Source: a virus. Taken from it: a DNA stretch of 64,000 bases. Location: IMG/VR virus record IMGVR_UViG_3300030099_005838, one strand, 5' to 3'. Below the pieces are notes generated by a model. The model made no database searches. It was not told the DNA's origin and was given only the letters and a program-made list of their open reading frames with translations. A program made the position numbers and the translations under genes. Below, piece by piece: positions 19,439 to 62,788 of the stretch (the stretch's first letter is position 1; every line of letters starts with the position of its first letter).

Positions 19439-19448
19439 GGAAAGTAAA

Positions 19449-19838: not shown

Positions 19839-19889
19839 TTTAAAAAACTGATATTTATAATTAGATGATATCATTTAGGGAGAAGTAAA

Positions 19890-21515
19890 ATGGCAAATTG
19901 GAAAAAAGTAATTGTAAGTGGTTCTGCTGCAGAACTCGCTTCTTTGCAATTAGACACTGCGTTACCAGTAGCACAGGGTGGTATTGGTGCAACATCTTTG
20001 ACGGATAAAGCGGTTCTAATATCGCAAGATAGTGGGACTGATGCAGTAGGTTCACTTGCCTTATCGAGTAATGGAAGTTTAATAATAGGTGGTACTAGTG
20101 GCCCTGCCGTAGAAGCAGCTAGTGATTTAGCTGGTTCAGGTTTAGCAGCAACCACAGGTGATGGGACTCTAGCTTTATCAATTGGTGCAGGAACTGGTAT
20201 AGATGTTGCAGCAGACGCAATCTCAGTTGATGTATCCGACTTTATGACAAATGGTTCTAACAATAGAATTGTTACGGCTACTGGTGCTGATGCAATGAAT
20301 GCAGAAGCAAATCTTACCTTTGATGGTAGTGGGTTAAGTGTTACAGGACATGTAAGTGCAAGTGGTAATATGAGCGGTTCTGCGTCGTCCACAGGTTCTT
20401 TTGGTAGATTACAAACCGCAGGTGCATCGGAAATTGGAGGCAATCTCACTCAAAAGGGTGGTACTTTTCTAATAGAGAGTTCTAATATACCAACAATAAA
20501 GAGTTTGTCTGGTCATCCATTAGTCATAGACCAAAGAAATCCTGTTGCTCCAACCGCAATATACAATCAGTTGAGATTCAATTCTTCTTTTGGTGCAGAA
20601 TTAAGACAATTTTCTACAACTCTCAAACTTTCTAACTCAACAGGTAATGCAAATTATTGGAAATTTGAACAAAACACTTTATCCACACCAGACGGAGTGG
20701 GAAATGTTAGTGGTTCAGCGACTTCAACCGGTTCATTTGGATTTATTACAGGTTCGAAAATTCAAGGTACTTTCTTAGGTGACGGTAATGCATTAGATTT
20801 GAGTTCAAATTCAACAATAGGTAGTAATATTTTCAGTACAGTAGCAGTCTCTGGACAATCAAATATAGTAGCAGATAGTAACTCCGACACACTAACACTA
20901 GCTGAATCTACAGGTTTAGGAATAACTACAAATGCAGGAAATGATACCGTAACATTCGCATTAGATTCTGCACAGACTACAATACAAACTATTTTTAATA
21001 CAGGATTAATTGTTGGTAGAGCTTCAGGTGATACAACAATAGATTTTACTGCAGATGATGTCATTGTGTTCGATGCAGGTGCTTCGGAAAAAATGAGAGT
21101 GGATACATCTGGTGTAGATATTACGGGTGCCTTAACGGTTAGTACTAATGCAACAATACAAGGTGACTTGGTTGTAAATGGAAGTACGACAACTTTATCA
21201 ACAACTAATTTAGCAGTTGGAGACCAATTCATATTCGCAGCAACCGGTTCTGCGGGTTCTAATGTGGATGCTGGATTGGTAGTACAAAGTGGTTCGGCAG
21301 CAAATACAGGTTCAGCTTTTTATCATGATATAAATTCACAAAGATGGGCAGTTGCAAAAACAGTAGCATCAAATGCTGTAGCAGTAACTCCTAACCAATT
21401 TGTTGGAACAATAACTTTAAATTCAAACCCACCATCAGATTCAGATGGTGAGTATGGTGTCGGCGAAATGTGGATAGAAACCGATACACAGGATATCTTT
21501 ATTAGAACAGGTTAA
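19890..21515 (+). CDS. Fibre-like virion protein
   Basis: MANWKKVIVSGS N-terminus shared with the 2925-aa protein; two SGSxxSTGSFG spacers; G/S/T/A-rich. Confidence 0.6.
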   Translation: MANWKKVIVSGSAAELASLQLDTALPVAQGGIGATSLTDKAVLISQDSGTDAVGSLALSSNGSLIIGGTSGPAVEAASDLAGSGLAATTGDGTLALSIGAGTGIDVAADAISVDVSDFMTNGSNNRIVTATGADAMNAEANLTFDGSGLSVTGHVSASGNMSGSASSTGSFGRLQTAGASEIGGNLTQKGGTFLIESSNIPTIKSLSGHPLVIDQRNPVAPTAIYNQLRFNSSFGAELRQFSTTLKLSNSTGNANYWKFEQNTLSTPDGVGNVSGSATSTGSFGFITGSKIQGTFLGDGNALDLSSNSTIGSNIFSTVAVSGQSNIVADSNSDTLTLAESTGLGITTNAGNDTVTFALDSAQTTIQTIFNTGLIVGRASGDTTIDFTADDVIVFDAGASEKMRVDTSGVDITGALTVSTNATIQGDLVVNGSTTTLSTTNLAVGDQFIFAATGSAGSNVDAGLVVQSGSAANTGSAFYHDINSQRWAVAKTVASNAVAVTPNQFVGTITLNSNPPSDSDGEYGVGEMWIETDTQDIFIRTG

Positions 21516-21530
21516 TTATAGAGGTTTTAT

Positions 21531-21737
21531 ATGGCTTTAAAAACAAGAGGTGGAATAAACATAGTAGGAAAGGAAGCTTATGTTCATCCACTTGAATTAG
21601 AGGATTTGGAATTTTTAATCAAAATGATTGCAAATACAAGTCATAAAGGTAGTGACATTGGTATGGTTATCAAAGTCACAGAAAAATTAAAAAAAGAGTA
21701 TGATGAAATAATTCAGATAAATACTCAAAAATCTTAA
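21531..21737 (+). CDS. Small hypothetical protein between fibre genes (possible chaperone)
   Basis: 68 aa, GAGG upstream; function inferred from position only. Confidence 0.45.
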   Translation: MALKTRGGINIVGKEAYVHPLELEDLEFLIKMIANTSHKGSDIGMVIKVTEKLKKEYDEIIQINTQKS

Positions 21738-21738
21738 T

Positions 21739-21779
21739 GTTGGCCCGTAAGGGAAGTGGGCTCATAAAGAGTAACCAAC
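21739..21779 (+). ncRNA. Candidate three-way-junction structured RNA leader of the 2925-aa fibre gene
   Basis: GTTGG/CCAAC closing stem, CCC-GTAA-GGG GNRA hairpin, (G)CTC-ATAAA-GAG(T) hairpin; GC-rich island just before the AGGAG SD. Confidence 0.45.
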
Positions 21780-21799
21780 CACGATTAGGAGTAAAGTAA

Positions 21800-24700
21800 A
21801 TGCCAAGTTGGAAAAAAGTAATAACATCTGGAAGTAATGCTGCACTGAATCACATAACTTCTTCCGGTAACATAAGTGGTTCGGCAACCTCAACAGGTTC
21901 GTTTGGCCAGTTAGACTTACTTAGTAAGGGAAGTTTAAGAATTAATCAAGGTGGTCGTGGTGACGAGGGTTCTGGAAATAACAATGGTATAACTTTATTT
22001 CAATCGACCACATTTACAGGTAATTTAACTACTACTGCTAATCTCTTCAGTCGTATTTTTGATGACAATAAATTAGTTTTAGCAAACCATTTTAATAACG
22101 CTGGTGGTGGGATATCCTTACGGACAATGGCTGGTGGCTCTCAAAACTCAGCTATTGATATAGCTGGAAATACAGGCATAACTACAATAAATAAAGGACT
22201 TGTAGTAAGAGACTCAGCAACAATAAACACCGATTTAATAGTTACAGGAAGTATAAGTGGTTCGTCATCCTCAACGGGTTCATTCAGTAGGGCAGAAATA
22301 GCTGGTACAGGTAAATTTGGTAAGATAGGTATCAATGTATCAAATCCAGGTGAAGCATTAGAAATCAATGCTGGTAAATTAAAATTCTCAGGTCATGCCT
22401 CAGGTTTCGGAGCAGGGATGATCGGAATGACATCCAATTTTTTAGCACTGGTTGGTGGTTCTAACGGTATAGTGATAAATGGTGATAGCAACGGACTAGA
22501 TAAAAATAGCTTTACATTCACTGCTGCAAAAATAAGTGGCTCATCAACCTCAACTGGTTCTTTTGGTAGACTGGAACTTGGACAATCAAATGGTGCTCCA
22601 ATGGCAGTATATGGAAATGTTGGTACTGCAGGTATAAGACTTGAAAATTATAAAGGCTATCTTGAAATTGATCCTCACACTTCCACAGTTAACATAACTT
22701 CAAATAAAAATGAGATACAATTTCAGAATAGAATTGGCGCCAGATTTGGAATTACAGGCTACTCAACTAGTGATTTAGTATTTTTTACAAATAGTGGGAA
22801 TACAACTCATGCAACTTTTAGTCCTACAACCGGAACATCATTTACGCAAAATATAACAGGTAGTGGAAACTTAGAGATAGCTGGAAACATAAGTGGTTCA
22901 TCAACCTCAACTGGTTCGTTTGGTATGGGGTATTTCAACCAATTAGGAATATTAAATAAAAATCCATCTATACAGACTTCAGATGCTGATGATTTGGTTA
23001 TTGGGGATGGTGCTAGTGGAGTAAGTAGAGGAATCACTATATTCACAAGTGCTGGTAATAGTCTTGGCTCAATTCGTTTTAGTGACGACACAAGTGGAAG
23101 TTCAAGAAGAAGAGGTGAAATAAGATATGACCATGCTGATGATACCTTAACATTAGCAGCTAGTAAGACTGAGGTATTGGAAATTACTAGTGGTGGTGGA
23201 TTAGAAGTATTAACTGGAAACATAAGTGGTTCATCAACATCAACTGGTTCGTTTGGCACACTCGAAACACATGCTAATTCATCTAGTTCCTTTGGTGGTA
23301 GATTGAAAATAACGGGTGATATTATACCAGAAAATGATAATAAATGGAGATTAGGAGTTCTTGCTGGTTTTGGTGCTTGGAAGGAAATTCATAGTTATCA
23401 ACTTAATTTAAACAATGGAACTATAACAGGTCAAAATGGTGGTGATATTCATTTAAAAGCTGGTAGCGGCCCCACCGGTCAGTTATTTTTAGCAAGAAGT
23501 GGTGGTGGTAATGGTGTAGGAGTTCATACAAATTCACCTAATAGTAATACATTTCATGTAGCGGCATCAGGTGGTATTTTTTCAGAAAACAACATAAGTG
23601 GTTCAGCAGGTTCAACTGGTTCGTTTGGTTCAGTCCACACATCGGGCCAAATAGGAATACAAACAACTGCACCAAAGAAAGCTCTTACGGTTAAAGCAAG
23701 CGGTAACGATGATGGAATAGCACTTCTTGCAAGTAATGGTCAATTTGCTGCTCTTCTTCACCAACAAGACAATGATGCCGGAATGTTAAGATTACATGAT
23801 GATTCTTCAACCACAAAAATTGCTTTTAATGCTGATGATGGAGCTGATTCCTTCATTAACAATGGTGGAAGCTTTGGCATCGGCACCACAAGTCCAGATG
23901 GGTTAGTACATGCCTTTAGTGGAAATGCATCTCAAACAGCAAATGCGGCTGCAAATCAACTAATTGCAGAAAATAACACAAATGCTGGTGTCTCTATTTT
24001 GTCAGGTACAAGTCATAGTGGTGCAATATATTTTGGAGATTCTGGTAATGCTAAAATAGGAACTATAATTTATGACCACGGAGATGAACAGTTAAGGATT
24101 GGAGTAAACGATGCTGTTATTTTAACATTAACGGATTCAAAAATAAGTGGTTCATCAACCTCAACTGGTTCGTTTGGAAAGTTGTCTGTTGGCAGTGGTA
24201 ATATCACAACTTCAGGTAATATGGTACTTGATGCAGATGGTGCACAGATTAGATTGCAGGATGGTGGAACAGAGTTTGGTAGGATAAGTAGAGTCTCTTC
24301 GGACCTGGTTATAAAATCAATAAGTAATAATAATGATATATTGTTTAAAGGAGTCGATGGTGGTGGTACAATAACTGCACTACAGTTGGATATGTCAGAG
24401 GGTGGTAATGCAATATTTAGTGGGAATGCTACTGTACCTGGAACTTTAGCAGTTGATACCAATACATTATATGTAGATTCTTCAGCAAATAAAGTTGGAA
24501 TAAAAAGAATTGATCCCCAGTTCGAATTGGATGTTATCGGTGATATAAGAGCTACTGGTGATGTCATTGCAAAAAGGTATGTAATTAGTTCTTCTGTAAG
24601 TCACATTACATCAAGTTTCTCAAGTGGCTCAACAATTTTTGGTGATACTATCGCCGATACACATCGGTTCACAGGCTCGTTGAGTGTAACTGGCAGTGGT

Positions 24701-27700
24701 GATAAAGTTTTTGAAGTTGCATCTTTTTCAGGTGCGGTGCCAAGATTTAGAATAGATAATGATGCTACCAATACAATTGGTATCAATACAACTCCATCAA
24801 CAGGTTTGGTTGCTATAAGGTCGACTGGTAATGACGCTAATCAACTTTCTTTTCTAAACGGAGCTGGTACACATACAGGTGGATTCTATGATGCGGGTGG
24901 AAGATTAATATTACAATTAAAAAATTCAAGTGGTGCTACAAAGGTAAATATTGAACCCGGCGGTGATTCATATTTTAATGGTGGCAATGTCGGCATCGGT
25001 ATCACAAGTCCCGAAGGTTTATTACATATCTTTACTGCAGATGCCTCAATCGCACCAAATGTTGATGCGGATGAATTAGTTGTAGAGAATAGCGGTAATG
25101 CTGGTATTTCTATATTAAGTGGAAACACTTCTAATGGTGCTATATACTTTGGTGATGCTCAAGACAATAATATAGGTATGATTGATTATGACCATGCACT
25201 TAATAAAATTTCTCTTACGGCTGGTGCTACAACTCTTCCTGTATTTTCAGTTACAAGTAACACTGCAGAGTTTGGTCCTACTGTACTAAAAGTAAGTGGT
25301 TCATCAACCTCAACTGGATCGTTTGGTTCGTTGGTTATTTCCGATGCTATTCAAGGAGGTGGGAATGTTAAAGGTGGAGACTTTCAAATTAGTGCAAATG
25401 ATTTAGTAGTAGACGGTTTGGCAAATGCCACAGAAAGAGGTTTAGTGATTAAACATAGTGGTATGACTAGCAATACGGTTTCCTTAGTTCAAGATGCGAA
25501 CAATTCAAGGGGTGAATTGAATACAAAAAACAGGTCACTTTTTATTCAGGCAGGAACTGATGGTTTTGGTTCTGGTGAGAGGTTTAGAATATTGGTGAAC
25601 CAAATCGCGAGTCAAGATATTTTAAATGATGGAACAGTATTATTTCCTGTTGCTAATCAAAAAATAAGTGGTTCATCAAGCTCAACGGGGTCGTTTGGGC
25701 ATTTATTTATTGGACATAAAACTGGAAATGGTCATGCTAAGATAAGACTTTCGGCCGAAGCAGATACTAGTGGTGAAAGAGCGATAGAATTTTTTGAAGG
25801 TTCATTTAACAGATGGAGAATAGCTAATAGGGGAGCTAATGGTAATTTTAATATAGAAAGAAGTACAGATGGTACTACATTTGAATCCACACCTGTTTTG
25901 AGTATAGAAAAATCAAGTGGAAATGTAGAATTTCCTGTTGCTAATCAAAAAATAAGTGGTTCAGCAACATCAACCGGTTCTTTTGGTAGAATTGATGTAG
26001 CAGGTAAATTGTTTGTAGGTGGTTCTGAAGTGGGTGCTGGTGGCGGTGGTGGTAGCGCGGATAACTTGGGTAATCATACTGCAACACAAGATTTAGATTT
26101 AAATAGTAAATCAATTAAAAATATAATTCACATTACAGGTAGTGGAAACATAAGTGGTTCTACAACAACCACAGCATCATTTGGAAGTTTACAACTTCAT
26201 GGAAAAACAATACACACCACTAAGGCAAGTAAGGTTGGATTAGGTACAACTAACCCGTTAGGAAATAAACTACACATTCATGTTGGTGATTCTGGCACAG
26301 ATACAGTCACAACAAACAGTAGTTTAGTAATAGAAAGTAATACAAACAACTTTATACAAATGTTGAATCCAAACGGAAACAATAGTGGTATTATATTTGG
26401 TGAGCATAATGATATAGATATTGCAAGTATATTACATGACGGTGGGGATAACTCATTAAGATTTAATGTTGCAGCTGCAGAAAGAATTAGAATAAACGGT
26501 TCAGGTAATGTCGGCATCGGCACAACAAGTCCTTCTAAAACATTTCATGTCTACGCAAATGTATCAAGCGATTATGCCGCTCTCGTAGAAAACGACCAGG
26601 CAACAAGCGGACATGGACTACAAATACATAGTGATGGTAATGGAAGTGGAACAATACTATTTGATGTAGATGCCGCTGGCTCAAGTAGATTTAGAGTCAG
26701 AGGTGATGGTAGTGTATTGGTTGGATTTACAACATCTCAAGCTGAAAAGTTAGCCGTCAATGGTGATTTCAGAGCAACTGGAAACATAAGCGGTTCATCA
26801 ACCTCAACCGGTTCGTTCGGACATGTAATGCAAGATGGTAAAGGTTTACCACCACAATTTACAACAGGAAGTTCTATATTCATTGGTGAAAATGCTGGTG
26901 CTTCTGATGATGGTTCTAATAATAGAAATATCGGAATTGGTAAAAATGCTTTAGACGCTGCTACTACAGGACATTTAAACATCGCTATTGGTGATGATGC
27001 TCTAACTGATGTTACAACAGGAAATCATAATGTAGCAATAGGATTTGAATCACAAAAAGATACGACAGGTGGAAATAATACATCTGTTGGATATAACTCA
27101 TTAGAATTTAACACTTCAGGAAATAACAATGTCGCCATAGGTTATGCTGCTGCGGGTGGATTTACTTATTCCGGAGCTGATAATGTTGCTATAGGATTTG
27201 CGGCACTTGGTGGAAATAATGTGTCAGGAGATTTTAATATTGCTATTGGGAAACAGGCATTATATGCTAATACTACTGCAGATGACAATCTGGCAATTGG
27301 AGACTTTGCACTTACCAGTGTAGGTACAGATGCTAACTCTAGTAGAAATCTTGCAATAGGTTCTGAAGCACTAAGACATATTGTATATACTGCTGGTTCA
27401 AGTGGTTTCAACAATACTGCTTTAGGTTGGAACGCAGGAACAAGGTTTGGAGATAATGCAGGAAACTTAACAAGTGCAAGTTATGGTGTATATATCGGAC
27501 ACACAACTTATCCACTTGAAAATAATTCATATAACGAAATATTAATAGGTAGTCAAGTAAGGGGTAAAGGTTCAAATACGGCTACAATAGGTGATGGTAA
27601 CATTACAGACATTTATTTGAGTCAAGACCAAGGTGCAACTGTTCATACAGGTAATGTGAGTGGTTCAGCAACTTCAACTGGATCGTTTGGTAGAGTTTTC

Positions 27701-33500: not shown

Positions 33501-36500
33501 TGGTTCAGCAACCTCAACCGGTTCATTTGGTAATGTCTACGTTGGAAAGGGTGGTGCTCAATTTCAAAATACTAAATTCGCTGTAGTTGATAACAATAGC
33601 ACAGAATACGCTCCGATGGGTGGTAGTTCAAATACTGCAAATGCTATGATTCAGTTTACTAATACAAATACTTCTGCTACTGCTCCACATTCCTTAATAC
33701 ATTTCAGATTGGATAAGAGTGGTGGTGATGGTTATGTAGGATTTATGACATCTACCTCAACAGGTAATATAGAACACTTTGTTGTTGGTAATCAGGTTGA
33801 TGGAGAAATCATCAGAGGGGCAAGTGGAGGCAACGTTGGTATTGGAGATTCGAATCCATCTGGTAAGCTTGTTGTTTCTGGTTCAGGTACTATAAACCTA
33901 CATATAGATAATAGTGGAACTGGTGATACCGGTTTATTAGGAAAGCGTAATGCAACCTCTATATTTGGAATGTTCGATGATGCTAGTGATAGTAAACTAA
34001 GAATAGTAAATTATCAAGCAGAACCGATTGAATTTAGTGTGGATAGGGGTGGTACTGAAACCATTGTGATGACAATGATGAATTCAGGCAGAGTCGGTAT
34101 TGGAAATACAAGTCCTGAGAGTATCTTAGATGTCAGCGGTTCGAATTCATTTGGACAATTACAGATACGTGATGGTAATAATAGTATTTACAGAAGATTT
34201 TTTGTATCAGCATCAGGTGCTCATGGTTTAGGAACATTACACATTCAAAATAGAGCATTTCCTGGCAGTGGAACAGGTGATGTCTACACCCATTTCAAAA
34301 GTAGTGTAGCAGGCGGTACAACTCGAATGAATGTTATGATAGATGGTAAGTTAGGATTAGGAACTACAGATACAGTTCCTGAACAGGCTATACACATTAA
34401 AGCTGCTAATCCAAAGATACAATTTCAAGATACAAGCGTTAGTAATTTAAAACACGTATTATCTGGCGGTGATGGTGATGCTGGTATGGCTTATGAAGCA
34501 GATGTAAATAATGTCGGTGCTGGTTATCACGCATTCAAAATGGGTGGTGCTGAAAGAATTAGATTTATTGAAAACGGTAGTGTTGGCATCGCAGATACTA
34601 GTCCTGCACAACCATTAGTAGTAAGTGGTAGTAGTAAAGGATTGTTATCAGTTGGATTAGCTGGTGGTGGTTCAAGAGTCACTATTGGTGATACCTCTAT
34701 GGATAGTGCACTACATATGAGAAGAAGTAGTAACGGTGCAGCCGATGTTCAAGTTTTACAATTAGGTAGCTCTCTCCATGTGGGTGCTACGAGCAACGTT
34801 ATAAATACCTTGATTCAATCGAATACTTCAGTATTAACAGTTGGTTCAAGCAAAGTGACTTCAAATGCTTCTATTGAACCTACTGCGGATGCTTCATTCA
34901 ACTTAGGTGCTGCAGATAAAAGATGGGCGAATATATTCTCTGCTGACCTTCAACTATCTAATGAGGGAACTGAAGGAAATGAAGTTGATGGAACAACAGG
35001 TTCTTGGACAATTCAGGAAGGTGAAGATGACTTATATTTATTGAATAGAAAGAATGGTAAAAAATACAAGTTTAAACTTGAGGAGATAACCTAATGGCAA
35101 TAACCACCAAAAAATTAATAGCTGAAGAATACGTTGTATCCTCTTCGGTAACCCTAATGACCCAATCATTTGCCAGTGGTTCAACTGTATTTGGTGACTC
35201 CTTAGATGATACCCATAGAATGACTGGTTCTCTATTTGTTAGTGGTGGAATATCAACCGATGGTAGTGCTGGTGGAACTGCCACATTTAAAGGAACTTCA
35301 GCACAATCCACATTGAATCTCCAAACTTCTGTAAGTAATTTTGTTGTAGGGTTGTCAAACTCATCTGGTAGACTTGATTTAAGACCTGGTGGTTCAACAG
35401 CACTAACAGTAATTAATTCAGGTAATGTCGGCATCGGAAATACAAGTCCTGGTGCTAAACTAACAATCGGTGGCTCATCTTCATCAGGATTACATGACAT
35501 CAGATTGGAAAACTCATCTGCTCAAATTAAGATAGGAGTAGCAGGTGGTGGTAGTGATATTGTTAGTTCAGCTGTGGCTGGTGACTTTATCATCTCAAAT
35601 GTTACTGGTGGAACAAAGAGTATATTGTTTGGTATCGGAACATCTGAACATATGCGTGTTGACCATTCAGGTAATATCGGCATCGGACAATCAAGTCCTT
35701 CACATCCACTAGATGTCGCTGGTGTTATCAGAACAACTGGTACAGGTACAAATTCTTCGGTTCGCCTTAATAATACAACTAGCAGTACAGGTAATGAATG
35801 GCAGTTGTACAGTTATAATAATGGCGATTTTAGTATTTACGAAACAAGCGACAGGTTATACATAAAGAGTAATGGCAATATCGGCATCGGGGAAACAAGT
35901 CCAGACCAAAAACTTCATATAAAAGCAGCAACACAAATGAGACTTGAAAGGGCAAGTGTCGCCTCTTACGATACTCTTATAGATAATTTAGTCACAGGAG
36001 ATACGGCTGATTTGACATTTCAAGCTCAAACATCAGATACAGGATTTTTATTTCAATCTAAAAATAGTAGTGGTACACAGATTAACGCACTAGCCATAAA
36101 TGAGGCAGGTAAAGTCGGCATCGGGACCACAAATCCAGATGCAAGTTTACATATATCCTCATCAGTCGGTTCTTCAACCTCATCACTGCATATCGAAGGT
36201 AGTGGTTCTTCTGTTGTCGCAGTCGATGGAACACAAGGAAGATTATTCTCAATAACAGACGAATTATCAGGTAGTTTATTTAGTGCAAACACAATATCTG
36301 GTTTGCCTGTAATAGAGGCTTTCTCAGATAATAAGGTAACATTAGGCCCGTTTAGTAAACCTATTACAGTTACATCTACAGGAAACATAAGTGGTTCAGC
36401 AACATCAACTGGTTCGTTTGGTTCGTTGGTTGTAGCTGATAAGGTTCAAGGTAATTTAGTAGCTAGTGGGAACATAACCACAGGGGGACAGATACTAAGT

Positions 36501-39500
36501 CCAGGTGGTTCAAACATAGCATTAAATCCAAATACTGGTTTGGTTACAATTGCTAATAATTTACAACTTTCAGGATATGTACAAGCGGCTGGTAATTTAG
36601 TAAGTACAGGAGCAAATGCAAAAATAAGTGGTTCATCAACCTCAACTGGTTCGTTTGGTAATGTTTTTGTCAGAGATGAGATTGAAATAACCGATTCAAA
36701 CACAGCAATATGTGAAGGTAATAATAATTCCGTAAGATTGAAAACCAATAACGGCTACATAGAGATAGGACCACAAAATTCTACACTAGCACATATCTAT
36801 ACTGATAGAAACCAGGGTTTCTTTTTCAATAGGGCTATAGGTGTTCATAATAACAAAATATACGTGGGAGACTTTGGTTCAGAAATAATAACAATAGATC
36901 CGGATGTTTCAGGTGGTAGTCCAAAAATAAGTGGTTCAGCATCTTCAACCGGTTCGTTTGGTAAGGTGAGTGTTGGAACTGCAAATCCGAAGTTCGCACA
37001 TTTAAATGTTGAGGGTGATATTGCATTGGGAACATATGCTGCAAACATGAATCGTAGAATTGGTTTACAAAGAAGTGATGGTGGTGGTTGGTCAAATACA
37101 CCACATATAACTTTTTCCACCGATGGTGGTGCTGATGCGAGTATCAAATTTTCAGTAATAGATTCAGGTGTAGCCGGATATGCTGATGCTGTGGTGATTG
37201 ATAAGTCTGGCAATGTCGGCATCGGAGAAACAAGTCCTTCTGTACCACTTCATGTTTCAGGTGATGGAGGTGCTAGTGATCCACTAGCAACAATGTTACT
37301 AGAATCAACATCAAATCATGGTGGATTGGTAATCAATGCACCTGCAAGCAAACAAACTCACCTTAGATTCCAAAACAATGGTTCTTTAAAATGGCAAATA
37401 AGGTCGCCGTTTCATGATGGTACAAATCCAGATTCTTTAAGAATCTATAGTTGGACGTACGGTGGTGATGTTATGGTATTTAAAAATGATGGCAATGTCG
37501 GCATTGGAACAAATAATCCTGTACAAAAACTTCATCTTCACGGTGGAAGCATGTACATGCAAACCGGACAAAATATTACATGGAATAATGGCGATGTTCA
37601 AATAGGAGCTATAAGTGGTTTTCACTTTAGAATACAAACATATACTGGCTCTTCACTAACAGAAAAAATGCGTGTTACGTCAGGTGGTAATGTCGGCATC
37701 AACACATCAAGTCCTTCAGCCAAATTGCATGTATCTGGCGCGGCCTCAACTACAGCCACATTAATTGAAGGACGTACTAATGGCAACGTTCCAATTCTTC
37801 ATATCAAAGACAAAGCAGATATGTTTGTTGCTATGTTTGAGGGTCAGAGAGCTGGTGATACTGGAGCTGTAGTTTCTATTTATCATAATCCAACAACATC
37901 ACAAGAAACCAACAGAACAATGTTAAACTTTCAAATGAATGATGATGGTGATAACAGAACTACTTATGCTCAACTTTTTTCCGGCATTGATGATCACACA
38001 GATGGTACAGAGGATGGTAATTTACAAATTAAGACAGTTGAAAATGGCACTCTAACTGAACAAATGACAATTAATTCAACGGGTGTGGGCATCGGAGAAA
38101 CTAGCCCATCATTCCCATTAGATGTTGTAAAGTCTGCTAATACAGGTGATCCATTAACACAAGCAACTGCTTATCAACTAGGTATAAGAAATTCAAACGG
38201 AAATTCAGGTGCCGCTACTTCTATAGCATTTGGACATGAGACTTTTGATTTCTCAGCTTTCATTAGTGCTCTAAGAACTAGCTCAGGTAATCACCCAACT
38301 GCTGATTTGACATTTGGTGCTAGGCCATCCGATAACGCTACTTTTGTTGAGAGAATGCGTATAGTTGGTGCATCAGGCAATGTCGGCATCGGCGAAAATA
38401 GTCCTTCAGCTAAACTACAAATCAAAGGTGGTGGTATAACCGTATCTGGCTCTAATGATACAAGTCCAATACAGGCAATGTTAATCAAAACAAGTGCGGC
38501 TTCATCACAAGGATTAATCGGAGTCGAAGGTAATACCGCGGGTGCTTTTATAACAGGTACAGTTGCTAGGGCTATGGTTGTGGCATCAAGTGCTAGTGGT
38601 ACAGCACTACAATTAGGTGCCGCTGGTTCAGTTGGATTAACAATGTTATCAAATGGTGATATAGGTATCAATGATACAAGCCCATCATTTAAATTAGATG
38701 TAAATGGAACAGGTAGATTTACTGGAAATGTTGCACTTTCAGGTGATAATGCTCAATTATCAATAGGCCATACTGGAGAAACTCATTGGGGAACTGGATT
38801 TGATATTTTAGAAGTCGGTCACTCTATGGCATTGTTCTGTGAGACCGCTGATGGAGCTGATAGAAATGCTTTTGTAGCAAACAATTTATATGCTGATGGT
38901 GATGGATTAAAAAGACATTATACTGATCAAACTGTAAGTATACTTTTAAGAGCTGGTTTTATAGCATTTAGAACAGATGCAAGTGGAACTGCTGGAGCAG
39001 TATTTACACCAAGTGAAAGAATGAGAATTACTGAAGATGGCAATGTCGGCATCGGGACTACAAGTCCTGTAGGACTTTTAACATTATACGATCCAGCAAG
39101 TGGTGATAATAAATTAAGATTTCAAAATTCAACTACTGGAGTCACAACTAGTGATGGAAGTAGAATTGGATTGAATGGTGCTGAACTTTTTATTAATAAT
39201 ATAGAAAGTTCTAATATAAAAATTTATACAGGTAGTACACAAACTCAAGGTATAACCATTGATAGTTCAGGTAAAGTCGGCATCGGGATCACAAGTCCTA
39301 CAGGTAAATTGCAAGTAGCAGGTGATATAGTAATCGCTCAAGGAAGTAAATTAAAAGAACCAGATGGTAATGCATACATATCATTTGATTCAAGTTATCA
39401 CATAACAGGTTCATCTGCTGGTGATATAGTATTTGATATCGATAACAATGGTAATGAAACAAATAGTTTTCTTAGAATAACCAAAGATAATCAAGCAACT

Positions 39501-40885
39501 GAGCTAATGAGAGTTCAAGAAAATGGCAATGTCGGCATCGGCACAAATAATCCTGATGTTAAATTTCACGTATTTGATAGTAGCGCTCTAAGTGTTGAAT
39601 TTGAAAGTAGTACAGGTAATGTAGATTTAACAATCAATTCAGGAACAGATGGCGCAGTTGAAAAATCAAGTATTCTTCTTCAAGCTAACAGCTCAAACAA
39701 ATGGGAAATACTAAAGACAACTAGCGATAACTTTCAGATTTACGATTATGGTCGTTCAGCGGGTGTGTTAGATATTATTTCTAATGGCAATATGGGATTA
39801 ATGGCTGATGGTGGAAATGTCGGCATCGGCACCACAAGTCCTGATACAAAACTTCATTTAGCAGATAGTAGCGATGTATATTTAACATTAGAATCTACTC
39901 ATGCATCAACACCTGAAGAAGCAGCAATTAAGTATAGTAATTCTTCTACTTCGGCAAATTATTGGTGGGCTGGATTAAATCAATCAGATGATTACTCATT
40001 GGCTTATGGAACTTCTTTTAGTGGAGCTAATACTAGATTTTTAGTTACTGAAACGGGCAATGTCGGAATCGGAGTTACAGATCCTGATAGTGCTTTAGAA
40101 GTAAAATCATCAGATGATACTTTCTTAAAGGTTTCTACTGGAAATGATACATTTCATGCTAGAATAAAAGCCAGTATTTCAAACGATACTCCAATGCAAA
40201 TGACAGGTATTAGCGGTCATGCTTGGATGAAACAGAGAGGTGGTGATGGTGAAGTAACATTCTTGACTAACGGTGGAAATGAAAGAATGCGTATAGATGG
40301 TTCAGGCAATGTCGGCATCGGCACCACAAATCCTGGTGCTACATTAGATATTTTAGGTCCAAGTGATGGTGTAAATTTAAGATTAAGTGATGTAGCTGGT
40401 AATTCTACAACAAAAGAAGCTCGTATAGGTGTGAGACACTATACAGAAGCTGAAGAAGATACTGCTTTAATGTATGCTCAATCTGGTAATGGAACTTCTG
40501 CAGTCTATATTGGTGGTGGAACAGGTGTGATGAATGCTGTAGAACTTATTGGTTTCGTAACTGCAGCTACTGATACTACTTTATCTGGAACTACAAGAAT
40601 GGTTATTGATAGTGGAGGTAAAGTCGGCATAAATCATGACAGTCCTAGTGCAGTATTGGAAGTAAAAGGTCAGACGGGGGTATCAAGTACTGCTCTTATC
40701 ACACACGGTTTAGTTCAGATGAAGACAACTCATAATGATAGTAGTGAATTAAGACACCAATTCTCTATGGGTGGTGCATCTGATCCAGGCAGTTACAATA
40801 TTTATCAAGGAAATGCCTCTACAATCGGTGTTCATTTAGATGCAGGAGATGATTCCTTTTTCCTAAATAGTGTCGGTATCGGTGG
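23870..40885 (+). repeat. Dispersed in-frame repeat family GG(C/T)AATGTCGGCATCGG..AC.ACAAGTCC (GNVGIGTTSP)
   Basis: About 20 copies, mostly in the 2175-aa gene (e.g. near 24984, 26503, 35419, 37209, 38376, 39039, 39524, 39815, 40305). Confidence 0.88.
30574..35094 (+). CDS. Giant modular fibre-like protein
   Basis: About 9 SGSxxSTGSFG spacers; C-terminus RWANIFSADLQLSNEG...GSWTIQEGEDDLYLLNRKNGKKYKF, typical of marine phage fibre ends. Confidence 0.75.
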   Translation: MTMFISSSSTSTGSFGLAQSEFVQHRVLKGWYQGNNIYDLPSGGSAGIRIAPPTPASGNSSLPIQFTNNAVQIQRSHNTLRLEAFQGSVAIYDTLNTETIATFGRSGLTFSLGSISGITHVSASGNISGSSTSTGSFGTLRVGTNVGSLSSGLVFGDGDTGFYEHADDDVFFKRGGNTVFRANTSSQLDFGVQHLFFNTTGGFFITTGAGSAAAPNYVFRGDQDTGMFRIDADRLGFSAGGALQLEISSNKISGSAASTGSFGRIEVHSNTGSFAHIENSSNIRTAKLSLTGGGGGDTTFVVTNFGGGNLLTLTNAATSILYDGRHGQSVAGLYFNVNNTAMLGNLASSATVPAFKFKGDTDTGLGRADSNQLSLITGGVEALRVTETLISGSATSTGSFGELQVRGAGQEKISLFGNAQQFINFGDAADSNTGMIQYDHNNNQFQFYANATNILRVLGSGFVLPSSNEGVSLGSTSLKWKELVVNHVSASGNISGSATSTGSFGKIVIPMQGNNVAFEALNGNFSVANTIFQHSANGGNLQFGSQTAGFFHSLGKVFTRKDGGYGDGGDEAFKATDHPVAAGFWVDSAGNMQFGHDNGAGVRNTVQMMTLGPQTGHASGSLLVSGSIIAKEGDVSGSATSTGSFGVIQNPSGLFLGSTNAAHQFSQITSTNHLFIGAGASTVQMQNDLIPDGNGSQDLGSTLRNFNQIFARTKVTGSSISTGSFGSVFIKNQSNLQFGSINTRIRGDNSNNVITFMTNNTERVRINDDGVGIGGDPVASNGLTIHAVNPGLTLRSSNTTGACKLRFADTGDADIGMIEYGHSSNAMVFSTGDAEAFRLDTNQNAIFGGSKISGSATSTGSFGELQIHDKIGINTADAGAVSPASPHTGAKTGLMEIKAKSSGGDAALLIRRFEGDGAYGMDLWTDTNAADSYIDQRGGISGAQLYIRTATHTSAVNAAIFDHVGNVEFPSATTISGSATSTGSFGNVYVGKGGAQFQNTKFAVVDNNSTEYAPMGGSSNTANAMIQFTNTNTSATAPHSLIHFRLDKSGGDGYVGFMTSTSTGNIEHFVVGNQVDGEIIRGASGGNVGIGDSNPSGKLVVSGSGTINLHIDNSGTGDTGLLGKRNATSIFGMFDDASDSKLRIVNYQAEPIEFSVDRGGTETIVMTMMNSGRVGIGNTSPESILDVSGSNSFGQLQIRDGNNSIYRRFFVSASGAHGLGTLHIQNRAFPGSGTGDVYTHFKSSVAGGTTRMNVMIDGKLGLGTTDTVPEQAIHIKAANPKIQFQDTSVSNLKHVLSGGDGDAGMAYEADVNNVGAGYHAFKMGGAERIRFIENGSVGIADTSPAQPLVVSGSSKGLLSVGLAGGGSRVTIGDTSMDSALHMRRSSNGAADVQVLQLGSSLHVGATSNVINTLIQSNTSVLTVGSSKVTSNASIEPTADASFNLGAADKRWANIFSADLQLSNEGTEGNEVDGTTGSWTIQEGEDDLYLLNRKNGKKYKFKLEEIT

Positions 40886-41621
40886 GGCACCAGGTCACAC
40901 AGGATTAGATGTAAGTGCTGGACATATTTCAGTAGATACTGCTTTCAGTATAAAATTAGATGGACCAACCGGTGGTGACTCCATTTCATCACCTTCTTCT
41001 AACACATTACAATTTATGACTGGTGGTGCTAAAAGATTGATTATCAATAATACACAAATAAGTGGTTCACAACACTCAACTGGTTCGTTTGGTGTTGTAC
41101 GGGCAGGTAATGGTGGTCCTCATGACCCTTCTTATCAATTTGGTGGTAACAGCGACGGTTTCTTCCACGATATATCTGCACCAGGTGAAGGTATTAAGTT
41201 AATGGTAAATAATGCAAATGAAGCATTGTTTGCAAATGGTGGTGACTTCCATGCTGATGGTGATGTTATTTCAAACTCGTCAACAATATCCGATTCTGTA
41301 TTTAAAACAGATGTAACAACGATAAGTTCTGCAGTAAACAAAGTTAAACAGCTAAGAGGTGTCAGTTTTAAATGGTTAAAAGGAAAAAGATCTGGTTCAG
41401 CTGATCTAGGTGTTATTGCACAAGAGGTTGAACCAGTATTACCTGAGATTGTTAAAACAAGACCACTACCGTTATGGCAAGATAAAGACCCGGAAATATC
41501 TGGTTCTTTTAAAACAGTTGATTACGAAAAATTAACTGCAGTCTTAATAGAAAGTGTTAAAGAACAACAAACAAAATTAGAACAACTTGAAGCGGAAATA
41601 GAAAAGTTGAAAGGTGGATAA
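35094..41621 (+). CDS. Giant modular fibre-like protein with a C-terminal Peptidase_S74-type chaperone
   Basis: Many GNVGIGTTSP units; C-terminus SDSVFKTDV...LRGVSFKW...GVIAQEVEPVLPEIV...VDYEKLTAVLIESVKEQQ. Confidence 0.8.
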   Translation: MAITTKKLIAEEYVVSSSVTLMTQSFASGSTVFGDSLDDTHRMTGSLFVSGGISTDGSAGGTATFKGTSAQSTLNLQTSVSNFVVGLSNSSGRLDLRPGGSTALTVINSGNVGIGNTSPGAKLTIGGSSSSGLHDIRLENSSAQIKIGVAGGGSDIVSSAVAGDFIISNVTGGTKSILFGIGTSEHMRVDHSGNIGIGQSSPSHPLDVAGVIRTTGTGTNSSVRLNNTTSSTGNEWQLYSYNNGDFSIYETSDRLYIKSNGNIGIGETSPDQKLHIKAATQMRLERASVASYDTLIDNLVTGDTADLTFQAQTSDTGFLFQSKNSSGTQINALAINEAGKVGIGTTNPDASLHISSSVGSSTSSLHIEGSGSSVVAVDGTQGRLFSITDELSGSLFSANTISGLPVIEAFSDNKVTLGPFSKPITVTSTGNISGSATSTGSFGSLVVADKVQGNLVASGNITTGGQILSPGGSNIALNPNTGLVTIANNLQLSGYVQAAGNLVSTGANAKISGSSTSTGSFGNVFVRDEIEITDSNTAICEGNNNSVRLKTNNGYIEIGPQNSTLAHIYTDRNQGFFFNRAIGVHNNKIYVGDFGSEIITIDPDVSGGSPKISGSASSTGSFGKVSVGTANPKFAHLNVEGDIALGTYAANMNRRIGLQRSDGGGWSNTPHITFSTDGGADASIKFSVIDSGVAGYADAVVIDKSGNVGIGETSPSVPLHVSGDGGASDPLATMLLESTSNHGGLVINAPASKQTHLRFQNNGSLKWQIRSPFHDGTNPDSLRIYSWTYGGDVMVFKNDGNVGIGTNNPVQKLHLHGGSMYMQTGQNITWNNGDVQIGAISGFHFRIQTYTGSSLTEKMRVTSGGNVGINTSSPSAKLHVSGAASTTATLIEGRTNGNVPILHIKDKADMFVAMFEGQRAGDTGAVVSIYHNPTTSQETNRTMLNFQMNDDGDNRTTYAQLFSGIDDHTDGTEDGNLQIKTVENGTLTEQMTINSTGVGIGETSPSFPLDVVKSANTGDPLTQATAYQLGIRNSNGNSGAATSIAFGHETFDFSAFISALRTSSGNHPTADLTFGARPSDNATFVERMRIVGASGNVGIGENSPSAKLQIKGGGITVSGSNDTSPIQAMLIKTSAASSQGLIGVEGNTAGAFITGTVARAMVVASSASGTALQLGAAGSVGLTMLSNGDIGINDTSPSFKLDVNGTGRFTGNVALSGDNAQLSIGHTGETHWGTGFDILEVGHSMALFCETADGADRNAFVANNLYADGDGLKRHYTDQTVSILLRAGFIAFRTDASGTAGAVFTPSERMRITEDGNVGIGTTSPVGLLTLYDPASGDNKLRFQNSTTGVTTSDGSRIGLNGAELFINNIESSNIKIYTGSTQTQGITIDSSGKVGIGITSPTGKLQVAGDIVIAQGSKLKEPDGNAYISFDSSYHITGSSAGDIVFDIDNNGNETNSFLRITKDNQATELMRVQENGNVGIGTNNPDVKFHVFDSSALSVEFESSTGNVDLTINSGTDGAVEKSSILLQANSSNKWEILKTTSDNFQIYDYGRSAGVLDIISNGNMGLMADGGNVGIGTTSPDTKLHLADSSDVYLTLESTHASTPEEAAIKYSNSSTSANYWWAGLNQSDDYSLAYGTSFSGANTRFLVTETGNVGIGVTDPDSALEVKSSDDTFLKVSTGNDTFHARIKASISNDTPMQMTGISGHAWMKQRGGDGEVTFLTNGGNERMRIDGSGNVGIGTTNPGATLDILGPSDGVNLRLSDVAGNSTTKEARIGVRHYTEAEEDTALMYAQSGNGTSAVYIGGGTGVMNAVELIGFVTAATDTTLSGTTRMVIDSGGKVGINHDSPSAVLEVKGQTGVSSTALITHGLVQMKTTHNDSSELRHQFSMGGASDPGSYNIYQGNASTIGVHLDAGDDSFFLNSVGIGGAPGHTGLDVSAGHISVDTAFSIKLDGPTGGDSISSPSSNTLQFMTGGAKRLIINNTQISGSQHSTGSFGVVRAGNGGPHDPSYQFGGNSDGFFHDISAPGEGIKLMVNNANEALFANGGDFHADGDVISNSSTISDSVFKTDVTTISSAVNKVKQLRGVSFKWLKGKRSGSADLGVIAQEVEPVLPEIVKTRPLPLWQDKDPEISGSFKTVDYEKLTAVLIESVKEQQTKLEQLEAEIEKLKGG

Positions 41622-61943: not shown

Positions 61944-62702
61944 ATGGATATTAATTCTATTCGCAAGCGTCTTAATCAATTACAGACAACAAATAATAGA
62001 ACATCAAACTTATGGAAACCACAACCAGGTAAACAGGTGATTCGTGTGGTGCCTTACTTACACAATAAAGATAATCCTTTTATCGAATTGTTTTTTCATT
62101 TTGGTTTGAATAATAAATCCTATCTTTCACCTATTTCATTTGGTCGTCCAGACCCAATTGAAGAGTTTGCTCAGAAATTAAAACAGAGTGGTAACAGAGA
62201 AGAGTATCAGATGGCTCGTAAGTTAGAAGCTAAGATGAGAACTTTTGCACCTGTTATTGTTCGTGGTGAGGAAACGCAAGGTGTTCGTTTTTGGGGATTT
62301 GGTAAAACTGTTTACCAAGAACTACTTTCAGTAATCGCAGATCCAGACTATGGTGATATTACCGATCCTGTAAATGGTCGTGATGTATCAGTAGAGTTTA
62401 TAACTGCTGAAGAGAGTGGTGCTTCTTTTCCAAAGACATCAATTCGTGTAAAACCAAATCAAACTCCAATCGTTAGTGATAAAGCTCAACTTGAAAACAT
62501 ATTGGAAAACCAAAAAGACATTACTGAATTATATCAGGAAAGGTCTTACGAAGAACTTACAGAAGTTCTGAATGAATGGTTGAATCCTGATGATTCCTCT
62601 GTTGAAGAATCAAAAGAAGAAACCGTTGCTCCAGCTTCTCTAGCAACATCTACTTCTGTAGAAGATGCTAGTTCCGCATTTGACGAGTTATTCAGTAAGT
62701 AA
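61944..62702 (+). CDS. Single-stranded DNA-binding protein (T4 gp32-like)
   Basis: WKPQPGK..IR.VP, YLSPISFGRPDPIEEF, VIVRGEE..GVRFWGFGKTVY, DYGDITDP..GRD, acidic tail ending FDELFSK; upstream of the recombinase. Confidence 0.85.
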   Translation: MDINSIRKRLNQLQTTNNRTSNLWKPQPGKQVIRVVPYLHNKDNPFIELFFHFGLNNKSYLSPISFGRPDPIEEFAQKLKQSGNREEYQMARKLEAKMRTFAPVIVRGEETQGVRFWGFGKTVYQELLSVIADPDYGDITDPVNGRDVSVEFITAEESGASFPKTSIRVKPNQTPIVSDKAQLENILENQKDITELYQERSYEELTEVLNEWLNPDDSSVEESKEETVAPASLATSTSVEDASSAFDELFSK

Positions 62703-62772: not shown

Positions 62773-62788
62773 TTAATTGGAGAAAGAT

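What the first reader, a model, noticed from the sequence alone, without database searches (positions are those of the whole stretch)
20370..41093. DNA-level conserved ~35-bp 'joint' repeats divide ~21 kb of fibre genes into exchangeable cassettes
Seen: about 33 copies of ATAAGTGGTTCA(G/T)CAACCTCAAC(T/C)GGTTCGTTTGG, always in frame, across four separate ORFs. The blocks between them (roughly 35-300 aa) are often mutually unrelated. Synonymous choices are shared across copies (AGT-GGT-TCA, ACC-TCA, and TCG in TCG-TTT-GG although this AT-rich genome otherwise favours TCA/TCT), which protein-level selection alone would not impose. Inference: the repeats are homogenised crossover points that let receptor-binding modules be inserted, deleted or swapped by recombination (the phage encodes UvsX and gp32 in this window). 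That would be a combinatorial adhesin-shuffling system needing no dedicated recombinase or reverse transcriptase.
Basis: partly seen in the sequence, partly recalled or inferred. Interest (0 to 1): 0.8.

Follow-up and report, generated by a model that had tools for sequence, protein, structure and literature searches.

The report
Codon-locked recombination joints in phage fibres
Four giant tail-fibre genes of an uncultured marine T4-like phage are cut into modules by a nearly invariant in-frame 35-base sequence, and related phages carry the same modules gained, lost or reordered at these sequences, so this is a large new example of the known motif-guided shuffling of phage host-recognition proteins.

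Summary
There are 33 in-frame, same-strand copies of a 35-nt motif encoding [IV]SGS[AS]TSTGSFG in four fibre ORFs (19890-41621). Same-residue codon identity inside the motif is 0.70 against 0.38 expected; the flanks match expectation. The rare codons TCG and ACC dominate.

- Other contigs share single fibre blocks at 80-98% nt, often in a different order. Their backbones range from 82-87% nt identity to none detectable.
- Of 67 homology breakpoints, 35 lie at this joint (9% expected).
- Another 15 lie at a second codon-locked joint, GNVGIGTTSP (GTC-GGC-ATC-GG).
- Five junctions in relatives join blocks that are non-adjacent in the window, and the overlap is exactly a joint.
- Contigs identical to the window for 11-16 kb diverge at the joints at 29942 and 23886.

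Limits: most contigs of this phage population are colinear and 99.98-100% identical, so this is exchange on an evolutionary or population timescale, not a programmed diversity generator. The enzyme and the rate are inferred.

The principle is already known from T-even phages (Tétart 1996/1998; Trojet 2011). New here are the motif families, the scale, the synonymous-site locking and the exchange across diverged phages. Other first-stage notes of this scan flagged the same stretch and the second joint.

The parts
19890..21515 (+). Fibre-locus ORF1 (541 aa) with two degenerate SGS joints
   Evidence: no Pfam or PHROG hit; the identical protein is on 24 or more contigs
21800..30577 (+). Fibre ORF2 (2925 aa): 18 SGS joints, 6 GIG joints, C-terminal Peptidase_S74 chaperone
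30574..35094 (+). Fibre ORF3 (1506 aa): starts with a joint at codon 5, 9 SGS joints, 3 GIG joints, cyanophage-like fibre tip at the C-terminus
35094..41621 (+). Fibre ORF4 (2175 aa): 4 SGS joints, 14 GIG joints, C-terminal Peptidase_S74
20370..20404 (+). SGS joint, 9 mismatches to consensus
20706..20740 (+). SGS joint, 6 mismatches
21872..21906 (+). SGS joint, 2 mismatches; homology breakpoint
22253..22287 (+). SGS joint, 7 mismatches
22532..22566 (+). SGS joint; homology breakpoint
22889..22923 (+). SGS joint; left edge of the 3-module difference to G002, and a G004 junction
23222..23256 (+). SGS joint; homology breakpoint
23594..23628 (+). SGS joint; homology breakpoint
24143..24177 (+). 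SGS joint; right edge of the 3-module difference to G002, and right edge of the 97.7% block shared with G004
25292..25326 (+). SGS joint; homology breakpoint
25664..25698 (+). SGS joint; part of a perfect 33-nt direct repeat, 25643-25675 = 25931-25963
25952..25986 (+). SGS joint; homology breakpoint
26150..26184 (+). SGS joint, degenerate (9 mismatches)
26786..26820 (+). SGS joint; junction in G001
27656..27690 (+). SGS joint; homology breakpoint
28400..28434 (+). SGS joint; junction in G004
28508..28542 (+). SGS joint; homology breakpoint
29189..29223 (+). SGS joint
29942..29976 (+). SGS joint; switch point of the near-identical population variants L188 and L189
30191..30225 (+). SGS joint; right partner of the L188/L189 module loss; junction in G001
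30586..30620 (+). SGS joint at codons 5-16 of ORF3 (7 mismatches); junction in G001
30952..30986 (+). SGS joint
31327..31361 (+). SGS joint
31741..31775 (+). SGS joint
32053..32087 (+). SGS joint; left edge of a joint-to-joint block shared with L040 (84%)
32476..32510 (+). SGS joint; right edge of that block, and left edge of a block shared with G004
32716..32750 (+). SGS joint, 6 mismatches; homology breakpoint
33127..33161 (+). SGS joint
33496..33530 (+). SGS joint; homology breakpoint
36387..36421 (+). SGS joint; homology breakpoint
36624..36658 (+). SGS joint
36927..36961 (+). SGS joint
41058..41092 (+). SGS joint before the S74 module of ORF4
23867..23896 (+). GIG joint (..FGIGTTSP); the L192 variant diverges here; left edge of the 97.7% block shared with G004
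24983..25012 (+). GIG joint
26228..26257 (+). GIG joint (diverged)
26504..26533 (+). GIG joint; junction in G001
28136..28165 (+). GIG joint; junction in G004
29672..29701 (+). GIG joint (NIGMGTQSP); junction in G001
33829..33858 (+). GIG joint
34087..34116 (+). GIG joint; homology breakpoint
34576..34605 (+). GIG joint; homology breakpoint
35421..35450 (+). GIG joint; homology breakpoint
35874..35903 (+). GIG joint
36108..36137 (+). GIG joint; homology breakpoint nearby
37209..40343 (+). Array of 11 GIG joints about 90 codons apart; G codons at 37218, 37500, 37695, 38088, 38385, 38664, 39048, 39279, 39534, 39822, 40314
   Evidence: breakpoints at 37208, 37488-37510 and 37678
17449..17570 (+). 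Third conserved element (SSVT..SGSTxFGDxxDDTHxFTGS), copy inside the gp15-like ORF
24623..24687 (+). Third element, partial copy; breakpoints at 24681 and 24700
29282..29400 (+). Third element, internal to ORF2; breakpoint at 29303
35118..35246 (+). Third element forming the N-terminus of ORF4; breakpoint at 35157
61944..62702 (+). gp32-like single-strand DNA-binding protein (presumed recombination machinery; inferred)
62777..63886 (+). UvsX-like recombinase (presumed recombination machinery; inferred)

Best explanation
The fibres are chains of structurally autonomous modules. Each module boundary carries a short conserved peptide: [IV]SGSxTSTGSFG, and in a second class GNVGIGTTSP. The DNA encoding these boundary peptides is kept almost identical among all copies in the genome and across a whole community of marine myoviruses. 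Every copy has the same orientation and codon phase, so a homologous exchange between any two copies gives an in-frame fibre with a module deleted, duplicated, inserted or swapped. The two copies may lie in one genome, in sister genomes during replication, or in co-infecting phages.

The exchange is most likely carried out by the phage's general recombination machinery (UvsX, gp32 and partners), by strand invasion or by annealing after a break. Repeated crossovers and heteroduplex repair within the joints in turn homogenise them. That explains the frozen synonymous sites, rare codons included.

Shown: the copies, their phase, the synonymous-site excess, breakpoints and junctions at joints in relatives and in near-identical population variants, and module sharing across diverged backbones.

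Inferred: the enzyme, homogenisation as the cause of the codon locking, selection for recombinogenicity, and receptor binding by the modules.
For: Copies and phase. 33 in-frame direct copies and no inverted ones.

Codon locking. Codon identity is 0.70 against 0.38 expected in the motif, with flanks at expectation. TCG is 23/33 against 4% background, and ACC is 18/24 against 10-13%. The GIG joint is locked on the rare codons GTC-GGC-ATC (GGC 18/23 against 6-10%). The same DNA motif occurs in 49 IMG/VR loci. In a set of 201 instances unbiased for third positions, 6.3-7.0 of 9 codons match the consensus, against 4.8 expected.

Breakpoints. 35 of 67 breakpoints lie at SGS joints (P=1.6e-19) and 15 of 67 at GIG joints (P=3e-4). 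In pairs that do not involve the window, 10 of 30 HSP ends lie at a joint in both sequences.

Junctions. In five cases, blocks non-adjacent in the window abut in a relative with the overlap equal to the joint. One is a 1216-nt, three-module difference to G002, bounded by the joints at 22889 and 24143.

Exchange across lineages. G003's backbone is 45-63% aa identical and G004's is undetectable, yet their fibre blocks are 89-98% nt identical to the window's.

Population variants.
- L188 and L189 are 100% and 99.9% identical to the window over 13800-29925. They lack exactly the 83-aa module between the joints at 29942 and 30191, and are different downstream.
- L192 is identical to 23886 and diverges inside a GIG joint.

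Other support.
- No homolog covers more than 38% of ORF3 residues 1-1000.
- One module, modelled with its two joints (AF2, pLDDT 78), is a beta-roll with both joints at pLDDT below 50, outside the fold.
- UvsX and gp32 are present.
- Recombination in or near conserved motifs is documented for T-even adhesins (PMC3157838).
Against: - More than 20 contigs of the same phage from different samples are colinear at 99.98-100% identity. Events are therefore rare.
- About a quarter of breakpoints (17 of 67) are at neither joint class.
- BLAST alignments tend to run into conserved motifs, which inflates the count of ends at joints somewhat. An attraction zone of about 85 nt per joint would still cover only about 13% of the locus.
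- In L188 the identity switch starts 16 nt upstream of the joint, so that particular crossover probably used the homologous upstream module plus the joint, not the joint alone.
- Heterogeneity of joint variants among genomes is only moderate (P about 1e-3). Within-genome concerted evolution is therefore not clearly separated from direct selection on the sequence.
- 35 nt is near the lower limit of efficient T4 recombination (from memory: Singer et al. 1982).
- The comparisons rest on metagenome assemblies, and no read-level data could be obtained.
Confidence: 0.7

Rival explanations
1. Protein-structure filter only. Recombination happens anywhere, largely by illegitimate events. Only products joined at domain boundaries fold into working trimeric fibres, so surviving breakpoints pile up at the boundary peptide. 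The DNA identity of the joints plays no causal part.
For: The joints are conserved peptides at module edges, and the one modelled module folds on its own with the joints outside it. 17 of 67 breakpoints are not at a joint. Most phage mosaic junctions in the literature are attributed to non-homologous events followed by selection (general knowledge).
Against: This does not explain the synonymous-site excess (0.70 against 0.38), which stops exactly at the motif edges. It does not explain the fixation of rare codons in two unrelated motifs. Junction overlaps equal the joint to the nucleotide.
Confidence: 0.13
2. Translation-level selection. The fixed rare codons (TCG, ACC; GTC-GGC-ATC) slow the ribosome at each module boundary so that the preceding module can fold or trimerise. 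The codon locking is then unrelated to recombination.
For: Both joint classes contain codons that are rare in this genome. The joints sit at module boundaries.
Against: Common codons are fixed too: TCA 88-91% against 30%, and AGT 84% against 33%. Any rare codon would serve for pausing, yet one specific codon is kept at each position. This reading does not account for the breakpoints. No consistent RNA structure is present (z-scores from -2.0 to +1.2, with different folds).
Confidence: 0.07
3. The joints are recognition sites for a dedicated enzyme that starts the exchange: a homing or nicking endonuclease, or a site-specific recombinase encoded elsewhere in the genome.
For: The core sequence is very strictly conserved, and two distinct GC-richer cores sit in an AT-rich genome. 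Many window ORFs have no assigned function.
Against: No recombinase, invertase, homing-endonuclease or reverse-transcriptase family was found in about 35 ORFs scanned. All copies are direct, not inverted. Only 64 kb of the genome was available, so absence is not shown.
Confidence: 0.05
4. Assembly artefact. The mosaics and variants are chimeric metagenome contigs joined at shared repeats.
For: L183 switches from G004-like to window-like sequence inside a 113-nt identical stretch, shorter than the k=127 in its contig name. That could be a chimera. Several contigs end inside ORF2.
Against: The joints (35 nt) are far shorter than the final k-mer. The same L188/L189 junction was assembled independently from two samples. 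The permuted orders are seen in JGI, ENA and Tara assemblies made with different assemblers. The codon-locking result does not depend on assembly.
Confidence: 0.04

Closest known systems
Recombination at conserved motifs in T-even long-tail-fibre/adhesin genes (His boxes of gp37, glycine-rich motifs of gp38; Tétart et al. 1996/1998 as cited in Trojet et al. 2011, PMC3157838)
   Same: T4-type phage. Short conserved in-frame motifs separate variable segments of host-recognition proteins. [quoted passage not shown]
   Different: The motifs are unrelated. Here there are 33 + 23 copies over 21.7 kb rather than a handful in one domain. Whole modules of 36-1377 aa, apparently unrelated to one another, are exchanged rather than loops. 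Synonymous sites are frozen on rare codons. Exchange reaches phages with no detectable backbone similarity. No experimental crosses exist.
PeSL regulatory cassettes mediating modular shuffling in T4-type genomes (Arbiol et al. 2010, PMC2839356)
   Same: Short, repeated, conserved DNA elements in T4-type phages act as sites for homologous exchange. This gives insertions, deletions and replacements. Exchange between nearby direct copies can release mini-circles, a plausible route for moving a fibre module too (inference).
   Different: PeSLs are intergenic promoter and stem-loop units that move whole genes. The joints here are coding, in frame, without RNA structure, and move protein modules inside genes.
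Botstein-type linker or boundary sequences, and collagen-like repeats between domains of Streptococcus thermophilus phage antireceptors (Duplessis and Moineau 2001, as cited in PMC5601072)
   Same: Conserved short sequences at module or domain borders of phage genes, proposed as crossover points for host-range change.
   Different: A different sequence class, with few copies per gene. Synonymous-site locking was not described in the texts read.
Cassette-based antigenic variation (Neisseria pilE/pilS minicassettes, Borrelia vlsE with 17-bp direct repeats); from general knowledge
   Same: Variable segments interleaved with short conserved DNA that guides RecA-type exchange.
   Different: Those systems have silent donor cassettes and one expression site, and switch at high frequency within a clone. 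Here every cassette is expressed, no silent store exists in the window, and the population is mostly clonal.
Shufflons and Cin/Gin/Min invertible fibre segments; diversity-generating retroelements
   Same: Alternative phage or plasmid adhesin C-termini generated at the DNA level.
   Different: These need inverted repeats plus a site-specific recombinase, or a reverse transcriptase with a template repeat. Neither was found here.

Membership tests
T-even conserved-motif fibre recombination (His box / gp38 GRM) | Short conserved in-frame motifs separating variable segments in T4-type fibre or adhesin genes | tested here: met
   T4-type backbone (gp20, gp23, gp17, gp18, gp15)
T-even conserved-motif fibre recombination (His box / gp38 GRM) | Recombinant junctions map in or next to the motifs | tested here: met
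   (comparative evidence, not crosses)
T-even conserved-motif fibre recombination (His box / gp38 GRM) | Sequence homology to gp37 His boxes or gp38 glycine-rich motifs | tested here: not met
   No gp37/gp38 family in Pfam, PHROG or NCBIfam scans; the peptide SGSxTSTGSFG is different
T-even conserved-motif fibre recombination (His box / gp38 GRM) | Chimeras obtained in phage crosses | not testable with these tools
   uncultured phage
Shufflon / invertible fibre segment | Inverted repeats flanking the segments | tested here: not met
   0 reverse-strand copies in the window and in four related contigs
Shufflon / invertible fibre segment | Site-specific recombinase next to the locus | tested here: not met
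   None found in about 35 ORFs of the 64-kb window; the rest of the genome was not seen
Diversity-generating retroelement | Reverse transcriptase gene near the variable gene | tested here: not met
   No RT family in the scans
PeSL-type shuffling cassette | Intergenic promoter plus terminator stem-loop | tested here: not met
   The joints are coding; folds are inconsistent, with z-scores from -2.0 to +1.2; no Rfam match
Fibres with intramolecular chaperone (Peptidase_S74) | C-terminal S74 domain above the Pfam gathering score | tested here: met
   ORF2 44.6 bits and ORF4 48.9 bits, cut-off 22
YadA-like head (Hep_Hag) repeat, for module 26786-27655 only | Left-handed beta-roll of NxAIGxxA repeats | tested here: inconclusive
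   Repeat consensus in alignment A1. AF2 pLDDT 77.6. Best PDB hits are YadA-type heads, but with E of 1.8e-3 or worse and TM 0.2-0.5. PF05658 is recorded on one homolog.

The most novel reading that the evidence does not exclude
The joints form a self-maintaining, community-wide linker code. Two or three mutually exclusive classes of in-frame DNA joints are kept identical by, and selected for, recombination. With them, diverged marine myoviruses draw on one shared library of fibre modules and assemble new fibres combinatorially, possibly by way of excised single-module circles. This would be a clear natural case of Botstein-type homologous linkers acting inside genes, with selection on DNA sequence for evolvability.
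Probability: 0.3. Interest if true: 0.85.

Novelty: new variant of a known kind. Interest (0 to 1): 0.62.

Why it matters
How phages change host range in nature, and whether phage mosaicism arises from homologous linkers or from random joining followed by selection, are long-running questions. This locus offers an unusually clean natural test.
- There are dozens of identical in-frame joints.
- The DNA-level signature cannot be explained by protein selection or codon bias.
- Module exchange is seen both between diverged phages and between near-identical genomes from Tara Oceans samples.

The phage is widespread: the identical fibre genes occur on dozens of contigs from many samples. Long-read metagenomes could therefore measure joint-to-joint exchange directly. 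The joints also suggest a natural design rule for building chimeric fibres in phage engineering against laboratory or environmental bacteria.

Tried and rejected
- Whole genome: none is held for this window.
- Megablast of the whole locus against 50,697 deposited phage genomes: no match.
- tblastn of a joint peptide: no match, probably because of low-complexity masking.
- A 41-nt joint query gave only two marginal hits (E=0.6). The one examined lies in a non-fibre gene of a Synechococcus phage and was judged chance.
- Literature: no paper contains STGSFG, GIGTTSP, GIGTTNP, VGIGTT or SGSATSTG. Two papers on marine myophage host-recognition islands and their structural variants do not describe such repeats.
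- RNA-structure reading: rejected. Folds are inconsistent with z-scores around 0, and there is no Rfam hit.
- Single-sequence AlphaFold of three short modules failed (pLDDT 36). Only the model built with an alignment was used.
- NCBIfam: no useful hit.
A pattern fixing only the Ser codon families was used instead.
- Dependence of codon locking on copy number: no clear trend, so this does not separate homogenisation from direct selection.

Full report
**What is there.** The window is part of an uncultured marine T4-type myovirus with 35.4% G+C. It encodes a T4-type terminase, portal, major capsid protein, gp15-like protein, sheath and tube. Between the gp15-like gene and the sheath gene lie four collinear ORFs: 19890-21515, 21800-30577 (2925 aa), 30574-35094 (1506 aa) and 35094-41621 (2175 aa). 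ORF2 and ORF4 end in a Peptidase_S74 intramolecular chaperone and hit tail-fibre PHROGs. ORF3 ends in a 77-aa tip homologous to the fibre tip of cyanopodovirus P-SCSP1u (PDB 8i4m, E=1e-16).

- The 35-nt motif has 24 copies at 3 or fewer mismatches, against none in 100 shuffles.
- It has 33 copies at 10 or fewer mismatches.
- All copies are on the + strand and in the reading frame of their ORF, and they encode [IV]SGS[AS]TSTGSFG.
- The blocks between copies are 36-1377 aa. Within the window they share almost no DNA similarity beyond the motif itself. Most short blocks show no BLASTP similarity; some long ones share weak repeat similarity.

**The DNA is more conserved than the protein requires.**
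- The last serine is TCG in 23 of 33 copies, against 4% of serine codons elsewhere in the window.
- The threonine at codon 5 is ACC in 18 of 24 cases, against 10-13%.
- AGT and TCA are each used in 84-91% of copies, against about 30%.
- For pairs of copies with the same residue, codon identity is 0.70 against 0.38 expected from codon usage of the same genes.
- In eight codons upstream and eight downstream, observed and expected values agree, so the excess stops at the motif edges.
- This holds beyond the window. The exact DNA motif occurs in 49 IMG/VR loci. In 201 instances collected with a pattern that leaves third positions free, 6.3-7.0 of 9 codons equal the consensus, against 4.8 expected.

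**Relatives show exchange at the joints.**
- Contigs G001 and G002 share the backbone at 82-87% nt identity.
- G003 shares it at 45-63% aa identity.
- G004 shows no backbone similarity in the 40 kb next to its fibres.
- All four nevertheless carry single fibre blocks 80-98% identical to the window's, often in another order.
- Using HSPs of at least 150 nt and 80% identity, and keeping only ends beyond which similarity really stops, I found 67 distinct breakpoints in 19890-41621.
- Thirty-five lie within 12 nt of an SGS joint, where 9% are expected (binomial P=1.6e-19).
- BLAST extension into the conserved motif can attract only ends that are already close, about 13% of the locus at most.
- In pairs that do not involve the window, 10 of 30 HSP ends lie at a joint in both sequences.

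**A second and a third joint class.**
- Most remaining breakpoints cluster at GNVGIGTTSP..LHV. This motif has 23 copies and is also codon-locked, on rare codons: GGC in 18 of 23 against 6-10%, ATC in 18 of 22 against 16-17%, and GTC in 14.
- Fifteen of the 67 breakpoints lie there (P=3e-4).
- A third element of about 100 nt (SSVT..SGSTxFGDxxDDTHxFTGS) occurs at 17449-17570, 24623-24687, 29282-29400 and 35118-35246, and also coincides with breakpoints.

**Junction signatures.** In five places two blocks that are far apart in the window are adjacent in a relative, and the two alignments overlap by exactly a joint.
- G002 11837-11874 joins window 22525-22923 to 24140-24428. This is a three-module, 1216-nt difference bounded by the joints at 22889 and 24143.
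- G001 5858-5900 is an SGS joint junction.
- G004 20450-20502 is an SGS joint junction.
- G001 5587-5632 is a GIG joint junction.
- G004 13429-13448 is a GIG joint junction.
- In addition, G001's second fibre gene begins with the ORF3-type N-terminal joint and continues into a module that the window carries in the middle of ORF2.

**Near-identical genomes differ at joints.**
- The identical ORF1, ORF3 and ORF4 proteins occur on dozens of contigs from Tara, ENA and JGI samples. Most of these contigs are colinear with the window at 99.98-100% identity.
- Variants L188 and L189, from two different runs, match window 13800-29925 without a mismatch (L188) or at 99.9% (L189). Their joint then leads straight into sequence 82% like the right flank of the joint at 30191. 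The 83-aa module between the two joints is missing, the S74 module is another allele, and the next gene is unrelated after its initial joint.
- The first differences in L188 start 16 nt before the joint, so that crossover probably used the homologous upstream module together with the joint. The structural difference itself is bounded by the two joints.
- L192 is identical to 23886 and diverges inside a GIG joint.
- L183, from the same sample, is 100% G004-like up to 23962 and window-like from 24076. The switch lies inside a 305-nt block bounded by a GIG and an SGS joint. It is either a natural recombinant or an assembly chimera.

**What the modules are.** No homolog among 5.8 billion proteins covers more than 38% of the first 1000 residues of ORF3, although pieces reach 91% identity. 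Most modules have few or no relatives in about 170 related loci. One module (26786-27655), modelled with a 17-sequence alignment, is a beta-roll of NxAIGxxA repeats (pLDDT 77.6, pTM 0.81). Both flanking joints score below 50 and lie outside the fold. The best structural matches are YadA-type adhesin heads, but they are weak.

**Mechanism.** The best reading is homologous exchange between joints by the phage's general recombination system; a UvsX-like recombinase and a gp32-like protein are in the window. Because orientation and phase are constant, every joint-by-joint exchange is in frame. Repeated crossovers and heteroduplex repair would homogenise the joints and so explain the frozen synonymous sites. 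This step is inferred. Variant frequencies differ only moderately among genomes, and locking does not depend on local copy number. Direct selection on the DNA sequence therefore cannot be separated from homogenisation.

Rivals were considered.
- A pure protein-boundary filter does not explain the synonymous signal.
- Rare-codon pausing does not explain the fixation of common codons.
- No consistent RNA fold or Rfam family was found.
- No dedicated recombinase or reverse transcriptase was found in the window.
- Assembly artefacts cannot produce the codon signal. They are also unlikely for 35-nt repeats, or for junctions recovered in independent assemblies.

[quoted passage not shown] Short repeated DNA cassettes mediate shuffling elsewhere in T4-type genomes (PMC2839356). 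Collagen-like repeats separate antireceptor domains in streptococcal phages (PMC5601072).

This locus works like those systems but is not a sequence member of them.
- The motifs are different and do not appear in the searchable literature.
- They are absent from deposited phage genomes.
- The scale, the codon locking, the multiple joint classes and the reach across diverged phages are new.
- It is not a shufflon or a DGR.

**Verdict.** This is a real feature. It is a new variant of a known kind.

Noticed in passing
window 34860-35091 (C-terminus of ORF3): The last 77 aa or so match the fibre tip of cyanopodovirus P-SCSP1u gp28 (PDB 8i4m, E=1e-16). They also match 'virion structural proteins' of many Synechococcus and Prochlorococcus myo- and podoviruses at 49-67% identity. 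This may be a shared receptor-binding tip or a hint at the host.
   Followed up: partly
L202 (NHHP01000001.1, MAG Candidatus Pelagibacter sp. TMED166) and L203 (bacterium TMED198): Two MAG contigs carry the joints. One of them is a 72-kb contig. Their backbones are 67-76% nt identical to the window. These are phage contigs binned into bacterial MAGs, which is either mis-binning or a weak hint at a SAR11 host, and it conflicts with the cyanophage-like tip.
   Followed up: partly
window 11451-11678: A 75-aa ORF encodes ribosomal protein S21 (Pfam PF01165, E=1.8e-14). It lies in the head-gene cluster, upstream of the major capsid gene (12924-14591).
   Followed up: partly
window 25643-25675 and 25931-25963: A perfect 33-nt direct repeat extends 21 nt upstream of two SGS joints and brackets one 96-codon module. 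This is consistent with a recent duplication, insertion or conversion tract.
   Followed up: partly
L189, corresponding to window 29741-29788: Ten mismatches are clustered in 48 nt inside an otherwise identical 16-kb stretch. This patch looks like a short gene-conversion tract, just downstream of the GIG joint at 29681.
   Followed up: no
window 16351-17892: The gp15-like tail-completion protein carries a copy of the third fibre element (17449-17570) in its C-terminal part. It may therefore bear a fibre-like extension, or serve as an attachment site that shares a module with ORF4's N-terminus.
   Followed up: no
window 41625-42311 and 42314-43018: Two tandem paralogous genes lie directly after the fibres. 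The second has a concanavalin-A-like lectin domain (Laminin_G_3, E=2e-16). They are possible accessory receptor-binding proteins.
   Followed up: no
window 5-2485: An 826-aa ORF has a cytidylyltransferase-like domain (PF01467, E=5e-10) and lies next to the packaging genes.
   Followed up: no
window 11935-12249: Tandem internal DNA repeats (about 125 nt, 84-87% identity) lie inside ORF 11800-12906, upstream of the capsid gene.
   Followed up: no
P0025 and P0043: Two homologs of ORF3 pieces are deposited as proteins of a 'Marine Group I thaumarchaeote' MAG, on a 10-kb contig. This is probably another mis-binned phage contig.
   Followed up: no
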